Positions 6,001 through 12,000 of a stretch of 64,000 bases of DNA are shown one piece after another. How positions within the stretch are numbered: position 1 is the stretch's first letter; each line of letters starts with the position of its first letter. The stretch lies in the NCBI RefSeq assembly GCF_051903065.1, contig NZ_CP178439.1; one strand, written 5' to 3'. A program made the position numbers. Source of the DNA: Escherichia coli (lineage in GTDB: Bacteria > Pseudomonadota > Gammaproteobacteria > Enterobacterales > Enterobacteriaceae).

Positions 6001-9000
6001 AATGCGATCATGGCAAACTGAAACGGATAATCGGCGCCACGCTGGGATTTAAATCCATGAAGACGGCTTACGCCACCATCAAAGGTATTGAGGTGATGCG
6101 TGCACTACGCAAAGGCCAGGCCTCAGCATTTTATTATGGTGATCCCCTGGGCGAAATGCGCCTGGTAAGCAGAGTTTTTGAAATGTAAGGCCTTTGAATA
6201 AGGAGAGCATGAAAAACCTCGGGGCAGCCATCGAATGATGCCATCTACAGGGGTTAAAATAACCACCATCATTTCATAACAATACCTGCTGACTATGAAG
6301 ATCTACGTCATCAAAATAGCAGTTCATGGAGTCAGTCCGATGGTCTGGCGTCGGCTGAGAATTGCTGCCGACACGTCACTGGCCGCGCTTCACTTCATTT
6401 TCCAGATAGTGCAGGGCTGGGGGGACGACCATCTCCATCAATTTCACATTTATGGCAAAGATTACGGTATCTCCTACGAAGGAGGCATCGGTTTTGTCGA
6501 TAATCCGTTCCGGGTCGTGATTGATGATTTTGCTTTTGATGCTGGCGATCGCTTTACCTATGAATACAATTTCTGGCACTGTTGCAAAGTTAGCGATGAG
6601 GCAGCCTTTTGTCTTATTCAAAGGCCTTACATTTCAAAAACTCTGCTTACCAGGCGCATTTCGCCCAGGGGATCACCATAATAAAATGCTGAGGCCTGGC
6701 CTTTGCGTAGTGCACGCATCACCTCAATACCTTTGATGGTGGCGTAAGCCGTCTTCATGGATTTAAATCCCAGCGTGGCGCCGATTATCCGTTTCAGTTT
6801 GCCATGATCGCATTCAATCACGTTGTTCCGGTACTTAATCTGTCGGTGTTCAACGTCAGACGGGCACCGGCCTTCGCGTTTGAGCAGAGCAAGCGCGCGA
6901 CCATAGGCGGGCGCTTTATCCGTGTTGATGAATCGCGGGATCTGCCACTTCTTCACGTTGTTGAGGATTTTACCCAGAAACCGGTATGCAGCTTTGCTGT
7001 TACGACGGGAGGAGAGATAAAAATCGACAGTGCGGCCCCGGCTGTCGACGGCCCGGTACAGATACGCCCAGCGGCCATTGACCTTCACGTAGGTTTCATC
7101 CATGTGCCACGGGCAAAGATCGGAAGGGTTACGCCAGTACCAGCGCAGCCGTTTTTCCATTTCAGGCGCATAACGCTGAACCCAGCGGTAAATCGTGGAG
7201 TGATCGACATTCACTCCGCGTTCAGCCAGCATCTCCTGCAGCTCACGGTAACTGATGCCGTATTTGCAGTACCAGCGTACGGCCCACAGAATGATGTCAC
7301 GCTGAAAATGCCGGCCTTTGAATGGGTTCATGTGCAGCTCCATCAGCAAAAGGGGATGATAAGTTTATCACCACCGACTATTTGCAACAGTGCCCGTCGG
7401 CTTGAGATGCACATGTTGGCTGAGGTCGCCGGGTAGCGTGAACAGGCGCGGACCGTCCCGAAACTGGAACACGCGATACAGATGGAATTGATCGCCCGCC
7501 TCCTTGGAGAATTCGAGTTCGTTGTGGCTGACCAAGAAAGACGAGCCTACCCCGCCATTGGTGGTTTTCACCTCGATGAAGCGCTCATGGGCGTCCTCTT
7601 CGAACGACAGGATGTCGAACCCCGCACCGTCTCCCTGGGTGTCGGACACCCAATCCAGCCGCTGAAAAAGCTCTGGGTGGCCGAGCTCGGTCAGGCGTTG
7701 CTGTTCGTAGCCAATCACCCACTGCTCCCCTGCCCGGCCCAGCTTGCGGTTGGCTTCATCGCGAGCGGCATAATCGAACTTTCGCGGTAGGCGTTGCCGT
7801 AGAGATGCCGGGGTACGCACAAGCACTTCACGGGCGGGTGGTTCTACCAAAGCCGCTCGGTAGGTTTTGTCACCCGGAAGTTTTACCTCCTCCAGGGCAT
7901 CGACAAGAGCGCCGACCGTCTGCTGATGTTCCAGAACGTAGGCGTGTACGGATTTACGCAGCAGCAGTTGGCTGTTGCCGCGTGGCTTGTAGCCGTTGAT
8001 ATAGGGCAGGCCCAGGGCATCGAGTACGGCGCTAATGTTCTGGTGCTTGAGCTCGACTGAAGACTTGCTGCGACCGTTCAGCAGTTGGCGCAGTGCCTGG
8101 TTGTGCTCGGACTTGTTGTACGGCTCCCCAGCCGCCTCGGCACGCAGCATGTCGAAATAGTCTTCGACCGTGGCCAGGACCTCTTCTTCGGACCAGTCTT
8201 CGCCGATGCGAATGATGCGAAACCCGAGCCGCGTCAGCGCCGGAACGACGGTCGCCTCGCCACTGGAGAAGCTGTCAGCAGTGAGCGGGCCCTGCTCGGG
8301 AAATTGCTTGCCGAAGGCCACACCGGCGATGGCCTTGGAATCGCAATCGGTGCCGGTCTTCGGATCACGTACCAGGAAGTCGCGGGACTTGCCGTAGCCG
8401 TGGCGCGCCAGGAATTTCGTGCGGCCCAGTTGCACGAACTCATCGATGGCAGCCTGCACGGCGGCGGGGCTTCGAAGCTGGGAGAGTTGAGACACAGGGT
8501 CCTTCCTTACTGTCATGGTGTGCCGGGAACCGCCGAGCCACGAGATTATGAGTAGCCCCTGAACAGAAACGTCACGATAAAAGCCGTGAACGCCACCAGG
8601 CCCATTAAATCCCTTGCGTATTTGCAGCCCGTGCTGTCCAAACCTGTACCAGGTCCGATCAACACGCTCCAACCATTGAGGTACGAAAACACCGCCTGAC
8701 CGAACAAAAAATGCGTGATAGCCGCCGCAGCCATGACGCCGGAATCGTCAGACAGGCTGTAGCTGTTGACCATTGCCCTGTACGCCTGCATCTGAAATGG
8801 CTATTGCCCTGATGGGAGCCGGCTTTTCAGCCACCGACACCAGCGATGCCGTCAATATTCTTTACCCGATAACCATGACCGTACAAGCTAACAAGGCCTG
8901 GCAAGCCAGCGGACTTAAAAAGTCTTTTTTTCTACCATCCCACAAAAAAGTTCGTGGTGGAGAAAAGATAAGCTATGCAAGGCTTTAGGAGACGTGGTTT

Positions 9001-12000
9001 TTCAGGATGACGAAGAACGATTCGGCGCTAGGTGCAACATAGGTGCATCGCACGAGCGCTAGGAACGGCGAAAAAAGGCGGACGTGGCGAAATCGGTAGA
9101 CGCAGCAGACTTTAAAATTGGAGTGCCCGCGGGGAAATCCGCGGAGTAGAACCGCTCAAAGTCGGGGAACGCTAACGGGCAATACCCTAAGCCAATCCCG
9201 AGCCAAGCCCCTTCGGGGGAAGGTGTAGAGACTGGACGGGCGGCGCCTAAAGCCTTCGGGCAATGGCGAAGGGACAGTCCAGACCACGAACGTCATCAGA
9301 CGGCGGCGAAAGTCGAGGTGGTACGAAAATCTGCTTCTCTGTGAGAGTACGGGTTCGAGTCCCGTCGTCCGCACCACAAAGCCAAACATCCCTGCGATGA
9401 TCGACCTCTGGGCGTTTGGTCGTGAGCCCGCCACCCTCGCGCTACGCTTTGCGCAGGCGTCGAAGGCGATCAGGTGCGCCCATCGATTCCGTCGAGCACC
9501 ATCGCTGCGAGTTCATCGCTGGTGTGTGCACCACTATCGAGAACACGGGTTGTGCATGGAAGCCGTTCCCTTGCGGCCAAGCATCGGGCGACATTCGCTA
9601 ATCGCCACTCTCGAATCTCCGCATTTCGATTCGGGTCAGGATGCATGGTCTGGTTCGCGATCCGGTGACGCAATAGGTCCTCGTTGAGCGTCAGAAAGAT
9701 GTGCAGCAGCTGATCGTCGATCCGCCTTACCCCGTCGAGTATCTCAGTCAGATAGTCCGGGTGCACGAGCGTCATTGGGATGATGATGTCCTGCGAGTAA
9801 TTCCTTCGAATCTCCCTGACCGCCGCGATCGTAAGTCCCCTCCACAAGGGGAGATCCTGATAGTCTCCGCTCGCTGGCATGGGGACCGTTTCTTTCACCA
9901 CGAACCCGATTTCCTCGGGGTCAAAGATCAGCGATTTGGAACGCCGATCGCGCAGCCGCTTAGCGAGCGTCGTCTTTCCGGCGCCGAAAGGTCCGTTGAT
10001 CCAGATTATCATTGTCGACGGCCTCTAACCTGAAGGCTCGCAAGAGCGCTCGACGGCCTCGTGCGGAGGCACGATCGGAGTGGTTCCGAAATGCTTCTCA
10101 AGATAGGTGACGCCGAACGTCACGATGTCCTGCGCGTCGAACAGGTAGCACTGAGCAAAGCCCACGACACCTTCTCGATGGCGACCGAGCTTCACGTAAG
10201 CATTTGCTATAGTTTCAACCGCATCCGGCTTTCCTTCGATAGCAAAGCAATCGAGAATGCCGTTTGAATCGTAATCCGATGCCGTTTTCCAGGCGACTTC
10301 ACCGTCTCTTCCAAGCATCGGCATCTCATACGTCACCCACCGTTTGTTGGGGATATCGGCAACCGCCTCGGCGTAGTGCAATGCGGTAACGGAGTTTAGC
10401 GGCGCACCCAACAGCAGGGCCTTCCCGCCAAGGCGAACGAACCGCTCGACGGGCGATCCTTCCCCCAAGGCGTGACCGAGTTCGTGAGGCTCCGTCAGCG
10501 TTTCAGCCAGCGGACCAACCGCGACCATCGATGCATCGGGGTGCGCGCTGCGCCGCGCGCCGGGGGCTTGAACCAGAAATTGATTCAGCAGGCCGAACCC
10601 ACGGTAAGTCCCGGCTGTTGCGGGATCGAACGGCAGCCAGGTACGGCGGGCTTCGTCATCCAGCCGAGCGCCATTCAGAGTCTCCTCGTAGGGTGATCGG
10701 TCCCACGACGCGTATCCCATCACAGTGCCAGTCGGCCCAACCGCGGAGCGTAACGCGGCAACGACCGTCTCCGCTCCTCCTTCGACCGGACCAATCGCTT
10801 TAAGTGAGGCATGCACCATCAAGAGGTCACCGGTTTGGACTCCGAGTTTTTGAAGCGCCTCCGTTATTGCCTTCCGCGTATGCATCGCGATATCTCCTCT
10901 AAACTGCAAAACACTATACGCTGATGAATCCCCTAATGATTTTGGTAAAAATCATTAAGTTAAGGTGGATACACATCTTGTCATATGATCAAATGGTTTC
11001 GCGAAAAATCAATAATCAGACAACAAGATGTGCGAACTCGATATTTTACACGACTCTCTTTACCAATTCTGCCCCGAATTACACTTAAAACGACTCAACA
11101 GCTTAACGTTGGCTTGCCACGCATTACTTGACTGTAAAACTCTCACTCTGGCACTGTTGCAAAGTTAGCGATGAGGCAGCCTTTTGTCTTATTCAAAGGC
11201 CTTACATTTCAAAAACTCTGCTTACCAGGCGCATTTCGCCCAGGGGATCACCATAATAAAATGCTGAGGCCTGGCCTTTGCGTAGTGCACGCATCACCTC
11301 AATACCTTTGATGGTGGCGTAAGCCGTCTTCATGGATTTAAATCCCAGCGTGGCGTTGATTATCCGTTTCAGTTTGCCATGATCGCATTCAATCACGTTG
11401 TTCCGGTACTTAATCTGTCGGTGTTCAACGTCAGACGGGCACCGGCCTTCGCGTTTGAGCAGAGCAAGCGCGCGACCATAGGCGGGCGCTTTATCCGTGT
11501 TGATGAATCGCGGGATCTGCCACTTCTTCACGTTGTTGAGGATTTTACCCAGAAACCGGTATGCAGCTTTGCTGTTACGACGGGAGGAGAGATAAAAATC
11601 GACAGTGCGGCCCCGGCTGTCGACGGCCCGGTACAGATACGCCCAGCGGCCATTGACCTTCACGTAGGTTTCATCCATGTGCCACGGGCAAAGATCGGAA
11701 GGGTTACGCCAGTACCAGCGCAGCCGTTTTTCCATTTCAGGCGCATAACGCTGAACCCAGCGGTAAATCGTGGAGTGATCGACATTCACTCCGCGTTCAG
11801 CCAGCATCTCCTGCAGCTCACGGTAACTGATGCCGTATTTGCAGTACCAGCGTACGGCCCACAGAATGATGTCACGCTGAAAATGCCGGCCTTTGAATGG
11901 GTTCATGTGCAGCTCCATCAGCAAAAGGGGATGATAAGTTTATCACCACCGACTATTTGCAACAGTGCCCAATTTCTTTGAGCACTGGCTTCATGACATT

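What the first reader, a model, noticed from the sequence alone, without database searches (positions are those of the whole stretch)
6567..11977. IS26 pseudo-compound transposon flanked by an 8-bp duplication, inserted in a passenger gene of the ISKra4-like element
Two directly oriented IS26 copies (6575-7394 standard, 11150-11969 variant) bracket the aac(3)-II/tmrB/tRNA/nuclease segment, and the whole 5.4-kb structure is flanked by a perfect 8-bp direct repeat CAATTTCT. Removing it and one repeat copy restores an uninterrupted pRiA4b ORF-3-like reading frame (…EYNFFEHWLHD…). This is a clean footprint of a single insertion event, and the two bounding IS26 differ in transposase sequence.
Basis: seen in the sequence. 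Interest (0 to 1): 0.5.

Follow-up and report, generated by a model that had tools for sequence, protein, structure and literature searches.

The report
IS26 gentamicin-resistance transposon inside ISKpn19
A 5.4-kb gentamicin-resistance segment bounded by two IS26 copies sits inside a gene of another insertion sequence (ISKpn19) on an IncHI2-type resistance plasmid; it is real and cleanly documented, but it is an ordinary example of well-known IS26 behaviour.

Summary
Two complete, directly oriented 820-bp IS26 copies lie at 6575-7394 and 11150-11969. They differ by 2 nt, which changes Tnp26 G184 to N. They bracket a 3,755-bp passenger, and the unit is flanked by CAATTTCT on both sides. In-silico excision restores a PRiA4_ORF3 gene identical to the intact gene in many plasmids. 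That gene lies inside ISKpn19 (6203-14456, 2,851 bp without the insert).

The element itself is not new. The same 5,395-bp unit occurs in 70 PLSDB plasmids, almost all IncHI2, and had no flanking duplication in the seven I examined. In pXJW9B277-HI2-N it lies between aadA22 and blaLAP-2. In the window that exact site (29249-30068) holds a single standard IS26. So the resistance segment appears to have moved within this plasmid lineage.

The duplication records one IS26 copy-in event. The unequal IS26 pair argues against a one-step insertion and implies at least one further IS26-IS26 recombination. These outer junctions were found in no PLSDB plasmid or complete E. coli genome.

Verdict: a known element at a new site; low interest.

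Side note: the passenger carries an intact tRNA-Leu(UAA) gene split by a group I intron, of alphaproteobacterial type.

The parts
6567..6574 (.). Left copy of the 8-bp target-site duplication, CAATTTCT
   Evidence: Read directly. It is the only matching flank pair among the 8 complete IS26 copies.
6575..7394 (-). IS26, standard allele (tnp26 CDS 6627-7331, Gly184)
   Evidence: 820 bp with 14-bp terminal inverted repeats. The protein matches NCBIfam transpos_IS6 at 275.6 bits and Pfam DDE_Tnp_IS240. It is identical to copies annotated WP_001067855.1 in relatives.
7395..11149 (.). 3,755-bp passenger segment (57% G+C)
   Evidence: It differs by 1-2 nt from the passenger in 9 fetched plasmids; the window has a private T at 8264. 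The inner-left junction is in 371 PLSDB records and the inner-right junction in 70.
7431..8558 (-).
   Evidence: Pfam PF13020 NOV_C at 77.1 bits. Annotated as a DUF3883 domain-containing protein in relatives.
9078..9376 (+). tRNA-Leu(UAA) gene interrupted by a 213-nt group I intron (9113-9325)
   Evidence: Rfam Intron_gpI at 36.8 bits, below the gathering score of 50, E 1e-6 to 9e-8. ARAGORN with introns allowed finds a tRNA at 9078-9376. The joined exons fold as an 86-nt tRNA-Leu(UAA). It is 79-95% identical to chromosomal genes of 5 Alphaproteobacteria, and 11 pairs carry compensatory changes.
9470..10012 (-). AAA-type ATPase gene (called tmrB in the literature)
   Evidence: Pfam AAA_33 and AAA_18. 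Annotated as an AAA family ATPase in relatives. The name tmrB rests on my own knowledge, not on a tool result.
10025..10885 (-). aac(3)-IId gentamicin acetyltransferase gene
   Evidence: NCBIfam AAC_3_II at 541.5 bits against a cut-off of 480; Pfam Antibiotic_NAT. AMRFinder calls aac(3)-IId at 100% identity in relatives whose passenger shows no difference from the window within this gene.
10921..11149 (+). 229-bp outer-end fragment of an IS10/ISVsa5-like element, cut off by IS26
   Evidence: Rfam RNA-OUT at 10966-11035 (minus strand), 98.8 bits against a gathering score of 41. The IS10-type end CTGATGAATCCCC starts at 10921; recognising it as an IS10 end rests on my own knowledge. Relatives carry longer ISVsa5 pieces here.
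11150..11969 (-). IS26 variant encoding Tnp26 G184N (tnp26 CDS 11202-11906)
   Evidence: It differs from the standard copy by 2 nt, giving G184N. Such copies in relatives are annotated WP_001067858.1. It lacks the third, synonymous IS26-v1 change seen in several relatives.
11970..11977 (.). Right copy of the target-site duplication, CAATTTCT
6203..14456 (+). ISKpn19 (ISKra4 family), 2,851 bp once 6575-11977 is removed
   Evidence: Imperfect ~43-bp terminal inverted repeats at 6203-6245 and 14413-14456. Identity to NZ_CP115314.1 starts exactly at 6203. The transposase (13031-14425) matches NCBIfam transpos_ISKra4 at 380.7 bits against a cut-off of 205. The resolvase-like gene (12425-12997) matches Pfam Resolvase.
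6295..12288 (+). Interrupted PRiA4_ORF3 gene (6295-6574 plus 11978-12288)
   Evidence: The restored 196-codon frame matches Pfam PF07929 at 110.7 bits. The intact gene is annotated WP_001493763.1 in relatives.
29249..30068 (+). Single standard IS26 at the site where relatives carry the whole unit (apparent donor site)
   Evidence: In unit orientation its flanks are CCGTAGAA and GACTATGG, the outer flanks of the unit in pXJW9B277-HI2-N. About 8 kb around it equals that plasmid minus the passenger and one IS26, with 0 mismatches.

Best explanation
This is an IS26 pseudo-compound transposon carrying aac(3)-IId. It occupies a new site inside ISKpn19 and came from another site in the same IncHI2 plasmid lineage.

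Most likely route, in two stages:
1. A standard IS26 entered the PRiA4_ORF3 gene by Tnp26 copy-in. This means cointegrate formation followed by resolution through homologous recombination, and it created the CAATTTCT duplication.
2. A circular translocatable unit (the 3,755-bp passenger plus the G184N IS26) was released by recombination between the two IS26 copies at the old site, between aadA22 and blaLAP-2. That left one standard IS26 there. The unit then joined next to the new IS26, by the Tnp26 targeted conservative reaction or by RecA recombination. This adds no IS copy and keeps the original duplication on the outside.

Shown: the sequence anatomy, the duplication, the empty target in other plasmids, and the occupied versus emptied old site.
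Inferred: the order of events and which enzymes acted.

The general claim (one copy-in event plus at least one IS26-IS26 recombination, with the unit derived from the old site) I rate at about 0.9. The specific two-stage route I rate at about 0.45.
For: - Anatomy and duplication.
- Empty target: identical in NZ_CP115314.1 and in all 623-624 E. coli records that carry the flank, none of which has the junction.
- Same unit elsewhere: the inner-right junction occurs in 70 PLSDB records, nearly all IncHI2 of 235-330 kb. All seven fetched (L004-L010) contain the identical-length 5,395-bp unit. Five have a standard left IS26 and a G184N right IS26, as in the window. None has matching flanks.
- Old site: the window's old site equals pXJW9B277-HI2-N minus the passenger and one IS26, with 0 mismatches over about 8 kb. 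The IS26 that remains is the standard allele, as expected if the excised unit took the G184N copy.
- Literature: Harmer et al. 2014 (PMC4196232) report that targeted incorporation next to an existing IS26 is 60-fold more frequent than copy-in, adds no IS26 or duplication, and leaves the resident IS26's duplication flanking the new structure. [quoted passage not shown]
Against: - No record with a single IS26 at this exact site (the predicted intermediate) was found in PLSDB or in complete E. coli genomes.
- The route needs about four steps, whereas the cointegrate route needs three.
- The allele arrangement is equally compatible with that rival.
- The direction of change at the old site (loss rather than never gained) is inferred from the majority state among relatives, not from a tree.
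Confidence: 0.45

Rival explanations
1. Cointegrate route, then loss. One IS26 of the unit in one plasmid copy (or another replicon) carried out copy-in into ISKpn19 of a second copy, creating the duplication. Homologous recombination between IS26 copies then removed the donor backbone and left the whole unit at the new site. Later the passenger and one IS26 were lost from the old site by IS26-IS26 recombination.
For: It explains the same duplication, the same allele arrangement and the emptied old site. If the standard IS26 made the copy-in, about 75% of crossover positions give the observed alleles (my calculation from the polymorphism position). It needs only three known steps. Cointegrate formation plus resolution by homologous recombination is the established way IS26 moves.
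Against: It needs an intermediate carrying two inverted copies of the unit, and none was seen among the relatives sampled. The loss at the old site becomes an unrelated extra event rather than part of the move.
Confidence: 0.35
2. One-step copy-in of a circular translocatable unit into an IS26-free target. This duplicates its single IS26 and creates the 8-bp duplication. One copy later changed allele by gene conversion with another IS26 on the plasmid.
For: Hall 2022 states that insertion of such a unit by either mechanism generates a pseudo-compound transposon. This is the only true single-event reading. The plasmid holds both alleles (4 standard and 4 G184N complete copies) that could act as conversion donors.
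Against: Copy-in would give two identical IS26 copies, but these differ at 2 nt. It needs an extra, unsupported conversion event. Copy-in is about 60-fold less frequent than the targeted route.
Confidence: 0.05
3. The 5.4-kb unit moved as a whole, like a classical composite transposon, using the outer ends of its two IS26 copies.
For: The left-standard, right-G184N arrangement at the new site is exactly the one in pXJW9B277-HI2-N, with a perfect duplication. That is what movement as a unit would give.
Against: Published experiments report that IS26 reactions yield only cointegrates and that these structures do not move as discrete units. Cut-and-paste of the unit would not leave an IS26 at the old site.
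Confidence: 0.03
4. Assembly permutation. The true plasmid has a single IS26 in ISKpn19 and the passenger still at the old site, and the assembler placed the passenger between the wrong pair of identical 820-bp repeats.
For: The alternative layout uses the same pieces and the same number of IS26 alleles. It would need only one biological event relative to pXJW9B277-HI2-N.
Against: A 64-kb contig that runs through 8 complete and 1 truncated IS26 implies long-read or hybrid assembly, and such reads easily span 5.4 kb (inference). No raw reads are available to test this.
Confidence: 0.05

Closest known systems
The IS26 - aac(3)-IId - IS26(G184N) unit of IncHI2 resistance plasmids, e.g. pR18.0877_278k (NZ_CP037959.1) and pXJW9B277-HI2-N (NZ_CP068042.1); written 'IS26-aac(3)-IId-IS26-v1' for the pOYZ4-derived integrated plasmid in PMC9019673
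   Same: The 5,395-bp structure is identical apart from 1-3 nt, with the same inner junctions and the same standard/G184N arrangement.
   Different: Those copies lie next to blaLAP-2 and have no flanking duplication. Here the unit interrupts ISKpn19 with a perfect 8-bp duplication, and the usual site holds only one IS26.
IS26 pseudo-compound transposons in general (Harmer, Pong and Hall 2020; e.g. Tn4352B)
   Same: Two directly oriented IS26 copies bound a resistance segment. An 8-bp duplication lies on the outside. Movement is expected through a translocatable unit or a cointegrate.
   Different: Nothing in kind. The two IS26 copies are different alleles, which narrows the possible routes.
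Classical composite transposons (Tn10, Tn5)
   Same: IS copies bracket a resistance gene, with a target duplication outside.
   Different: Those elements move as one unit by cut-and-paste using the outer IS ends. IS26 is reported to form only cointegrates, and the old site here keeps one IS26.
ISKpn19 (ISKra4 family), the element usually found next to qnrS1
   Same: The target element has the ISKra4-family transposase, a resolvase-like gene and a PRiA4_ORF3 gene between its terminal repeats, with qnrS1 next to it.
   Different: Here its PRiA4_ORF3 gene is split. No PLSDB plasmid or complete E. coli genome has this split, although CP101798.1 has an IS26 boundary 3 bp away.

Membership tests
IS26 (IS6/IS26 family) | 820-bp element with 14-bp perfect terminal inverted repeats GGCACTGTTGCAAA | tested here: met
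   Both copies are 820 bp with these repeats.
IS26 (IS6/IS26 family) | A single 234-aa DDE transposase of the IS6 type | tested here: met
   NCBIfam transpos_IS6 at 275.6 bits (cut-off 125); Pfam DDE_Tnp_IS240 at 164.3 bits.
IS26 (IS6/IS26 family) | 8-bp target-site duplication on copy-in | tested here: met
   CAATTTCT on both outer sides. It is present once in empty sites.
IS26 pseudo-compound transposon | Two directly oriented IS26-family copies bounding a passenger segment | tested here: met
   Both copies have tnp26 on the minus strand and bound a 3,755-bp passenger.
IS26 pseudo-compound transposon | Moves through a translocatable unit or a cointegrate, not as one discrete unit | not testable with these tools
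   There is only indirect support: the old site keeps one IS26 and the two IS26 copies are unequal.
IS26-v1 (variant of IS26) | Two nucleotide changes giving Tnp26 G184N | tested here: met
   The definition is quoted in PMC9412624 and PMC9019673.
IS26-v1 (variant of IS26) | A third nucleotide difference from IS26 (PMC9412624 says the variant differs at three nucleotides) | tested here: not met
   The window's four G184N copies differ from the standard at only 2 positions. Relatives L002, L003, L004, L007, L008 and L010 carry a third, synonymous change (P132). I am assuming that change is the one the paper means. The window's copies are best called G184N IS26, possibly an IS26/IS26-v1 hybrid.
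ISKpn19 / ISKra4 family | ISKra4-family DDE transposase | tested here: met
   NCBIfam transpos_ISKra4 at 380.7 bits (cut-off 205). Identical DNA in relatives is annotated as an ISKpn19 family transposase, WP_001493761.1.
ISKpn19 / ISKra4 family | Terminal inverted repeats enclosing the transposase and the accessory genes | tested here: met
   Imperfect ~43-bp repeats at 6203-6245 and 14413-14456. The left end coincides with the point where homology to NZ_CP115314.1 begins.
AAC(3)-II aminoglycoside acetyltransferases | Scores above the curated family cut-off | tested here: met
   NCBIfam AAC_3_II at 541.5 bits against 480. The allele is called aac(3)-IId at 100% identity in relatives whose passenger shows no difference from the window within this gene.
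Classical composite transposon (Tn10/Tn5 type) | Transposes as one unit using the outer IS ends | not testable with these tools
   Published IS26 experiments argue against it, and so does the IS26 left at the old site.

The most novel reading that the evidence does not exclude
The unit moved as a whole in one Tnp26 reaction that used the outer ends of its two different IS26 copies (composite-transposon behaviour, for example copy-in of the entire 5.4-kb unit followed by resolution). This would contradict the published view that IS26-bounded structures never move as discrete units. The exact preservation of the standard-left, G184N-right arrangement together with a perfect duplication is what such an event would leave.
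Probability: 0.04. Interest if true: 0.5.

Novelty: already known. Interest (0 to 1): 0.2.

Why it matters
It matters little on its own. IS26-bounded resistance segments with 8-bp duplications are textbook features of multiresistance plasmids, and this exact unit is already in 70 public plasmids.

Its modest value is as a natural example in which both ends of a move are visible in one molecule. The old site is reduced to one IS26, the new site carries an intact duplication, and the two IS26 alleles differ, which argues against a one-step insertion.

In practical terms, the insertion disrupts the PRiA4_ORF3 gene of ISKpn19 (the element next to qnrS1). It also gives two junction sequences that, as far as these searches show, are unique to this plasmid and could be used to track it.

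The intron-split tRNA-Leu gene inside the passenger is a separate lead on where the aac(3)-II segment originally came from.

Tried and rejected
- Chance repeat: rejected. There is 1 match among 120 flank pairs where 0.004 are expected, and the empty site is contiguous elsewhere.
- 240-bp junction queries: these gave 13 apparent full-length hits per junction in PLSDB. All but one were two separate pieces joined by the tool (record spans 279-811 bp rather than 240). The exception, CP101798.1, has the IS26 boundary 3 bp further along.
- 70-bp junction queries: I then used 45 bp of unique sequence plus 25 bp of IS26, so that IS26 alone cannot seed a hit. These gave clean counts.
- Default ARAGORN found no tRNA. 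This turned out to be a false negative caused by the intron.
- Flank synteny between the passenger and the five alphaproteobacterial loci: none was found. Homology is confined to the tRNA gene.
- Literature searches linking a group I intron with tmrB or IS26 found nothing.
- Intramolecular IS26 transposition was considered and rejected. It gives deletions or inversions with the duplication split in inverted orientation, not a directly flanked unit. The region between the two sites is also collinear with relatives.
- I did not scan metagenome contigs for the junctions, because the cost was not justified by the question.

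
Full report
**1. Observation**

The window contains eight complete IS26 copies and one truncated copy. Two complete copies, at 6575-7394 and 11150-11969, are in the same orientation with tnp26 on the minus strand. They differ only at offsets 207-208 (CC versus TT), which changes Tnp26 Gly184 to Asn.

The octamer CAATTTCT lies immediately left of the first copy (6567-6574) and immediately right of the second (11970-11977). Among all 16 flanks of the eight complete copies this is the only match in either orientation. About 0.004 matches are expected by chance.

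Deleting 6575-11977 restores a 196-codon frame (...FTYEYNFFEHWLHDIRVE...), which matches Pfam PRiA4_ORF3 at 110.7 bits. The excised sequence matches an uninterrupted locus in NZ_CP115314.1 without a mismatch from window 6203 to 18000.

**2. The target**

The interrupted gene lies inside ISKpn19.
- Imperfect ~43-bp inverted repeats sit at 6203-6245 and 14413-14456. They enclose 2,851 bp once the insert is removed.
- Homology to NZ_CP115314.1 begins exactly at 6203.
- The element carries the PRiA4_ORF3 gene, a resolvase-like gene and a transposase. The transposase scores 380.7 bits on the ISKra4 model, against a cut-off of 205.
- qnrS1 follows, as in many public plasmids.

**3. The passenger (7395-11149)**

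In window order it contains:
- a NOV_C/DUF3883-domain gene (7431-8558, minus strand);
- a tRNA-Leu(UAA) gene split by a group I intron (9078-9376, plus strand);
- an AAA-type ATPase gene (9470-10012, minus strand);
- aac(3)-IId (10025-10885, minus strand; AAC_3_II at 541.5 bits);
- a 229-bp IS10/ISVsa5 end fragment that includes RNA-OUT (98.8 bits) and is cut off by the second IS26.

**4. Distribution**

The outer junctions were not found elsewhere.
- No PLSDB record contains either one. The apparent full-length hits are tool-joined pieces. CP101798.1 has an IS26 boundary 3 bp away.
- In 5,426 complete E. coli genomes, 623-624 records carry the target flanks. None has either junction, and the two flanks overlap by exactly 8 bp.
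- No E. coli record covers more than 89% of the whole structure.

The unit itself is common.
- Its inner-left junction occurs in 371 PLSDB records.
- Its inner-right junction occurs in 70, almost all IncHI2 plasmids of 235-330 kb from Salmonella, E. coli and Enterobacter.
- This is the same backbone as the rest of the window.

Seven such records were fetched (L004-L010).
- All contain the identical-length 5,395-bp unit.
- Five have a standard IS26 on the left and a G184N IS26 on the right, as in the window. One has two standard copies and one has two G184N copies.
- None has matching outer flanks.
- A published description of a related IncHI2-derived element writes the arrangement as IS26-aac(3)-IId-IS26-v1 and notes that no IS26 there has a target duplication (PMC9019673).

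**5. Where the unit came from**

In pXJW9B277-HI2-N the unit lies between an aadA22 cassette region and blaLAP-2, with outer flanks CCGTAGAA and GACTATGG. In the window, a single standard IS26 at 29249-30068 has exactly those flanks. About 8 kb around it equals that plasmid with the passenger and one IS26 removed, with no mismatch.

The window is otherwise collinear with pR18.0877_278k between the two sites, and ISKpn19 is intact in those relatives. The window's arrangement therefore looks derived. The resistance segment has left its usual site, leaving one standard IS26, and now sits in ISKpn19.

**6. Mechanism**

Published experiments give the ground rules (PMC4196232 and PMC8722046).
- Copy-in by IS26 forms cointegrates, with the IS duplicated and an 8-bp duplication at the outer boundaries.
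- Incorporation next to an existing IS26 is 60-fold more frequent. It adds neither an IS nor a duplication, and it leaves the resident IS26's duplication on the outside.

A one-step copy-in of such a unit would give two identical IS copies, which is not what is seen. Two multi-step routes fit all the data.
- Route 1: an IS26 enters first and makes the duplication. The unit carrying the G184N IS26 then moves from the old site to sit beside it.
- Route 2: a cointegrate forms between plasmid copies and is resolved by IS26-IS26 recombination. The passenger is lost from the old site later.

In IS orientation the polymorphism lies at nt 613-614 of 820. An exchange at the left end, or anywhere in the first 612 nt, gives the observed alleles under route 1. 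About three quarters of crossover positions do so under route 2 (my calculation).

I prefer route 1 (about 0.45) because it makes the emptied old site part of the same move and uses the more frequent reaction. Route 2 (about 0.35) cannot be excluded. Neither predicted intermediate was found in the collections searched.

**7. Comparison and novelty**

Every defining feature of IS26 that could be tested was met, as was the structural feature that defines an IS26 pseudo-compound transposon. The mode of movement cannot be tested here.

The variant copy carries G184N but lacks the third, synonymous change seen in several relatives and implied by the published description of IS26-v1. Strictly, it is a G184N IS26 rather than canonical IS26-v1.

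The element and its behaviour are already known. Only the insertion site is new. Interest is low.

**8. Caveats**
- PLSDB dates from May 2024, and Salmonella chromosomes and draft genomes were not searched.
- Only seven records with the exact unit were inspected for flanks.
- The direction of change at the old site rests on the majority state among relatives.
- The layout depends on a correct assembly through 820-bp repeats, which I could not check.

**9. Side finding**

Joining 9078-9112 to 9326-9376 gives a perfect 86-nt tRNA-Leu(UAA) with an encoded CCA end. The 213-nt intron sits between U34 and A35 and ends in G.

It matches the Rfam group I intron model over the model's full length at 36.8 bits, below the gathering score of 50.

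An exact 24-mer scan of one genome per species hit only five Alphaproteobacteria. Their genes are 79-95% identical over precisely this interval. Their alignment shows 11 base pairs with compensatory changes.

No paper in the held library links a group I intron with this resistance module.

Noticed in passing
window 9078-9376 (+): An intact-looking tRNA-Leu(UAA) gene split between U34 and A35 by a 213-nt group I intron lies inside the widely spread aac(3)-II passenger. It is 95% identical to a Phyllobacterium salinisoli gene, and its other relatives in the species-genome scan are all Alphaproteobacteria. This hints at where this part of the resistance segment came from. Standard tRNA finders miss it, and public records leave it unannotated.
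   Followed up: partly
window 10921-11149 (+); RNA-OUT at 10966-11035 (-): The 229 bp between aac(3)-IId and the G184N IS26 is the outer end of an IS10/ISVsa5-like element with a complete RNA-OUT antisense RNA match (98.8 bits). Other plasmids keep longer ISVsa5 pieces, so the position of this IS26 cut marks the IncHI2 version of the unit (70 of 1,669 PLSDB records).
   Followed up: partly
window 11150, 50780, 57590, 61956 (IS26 start positions): All four G184N IS26 copies in the window differ from the standard copy at only 2 nt. Several relatives carry a third, synonymous change (P132) at the corresponding copies. Either this lineage has a two-change variant, or its copies are IS26/IS26-v1 recombinants.
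   Followed up: partly
window 5421-6202 and 6203: An IS26 that lacks its last 38 bp abuts the left inverted repeat of ISKpn19 directly. Window 5421-6574 matches pR18.0877_278k at 100% across this junction. In NZ_CP115314.1 the left neighbour of ISKpn19 is a truncated mrx gene instead. How this junction arose is unexplained.
   Followed up: no
window 14449-14957: Immediately right of ISKpn19 lies a truncated resolvase gene (Pfam Resolvase, positions 68-144 only). It is followed by a 29-bp sequence that is 83% identical to the IS26 right end, including a perfect 14-bp IS26 terminal repeat (14944-14957). It may be the remnant of a different IS26-family element.
   Followed up: no
L003 (CP101798.1) 7241-8060: An independent IS26-v1 boundary in the same PRiA4_ORF3 gene, 3 bp downstream of the window's insertion point. 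Its other side is unrelated DNA. This is either a second hit in the same short AT-rich stretch or a coincidence.
   Followed up: partly
window 8264: A private nucleotide difference (T here, C in all nine fetched plasmids that carry the passenger) gives Ser in place of Gly at codon 99 of the NOV_C/DUF3883 gene.
   Followed up: partly
window 1048-62775: There are eight complete IS26 copies (four standard, four G184N) plus one truncated copy in 64 kb. Only the pair studied here shares a flanking octamer, so the other copies have all been involved in later rearrangements or targeted events.
   Followed up: yes
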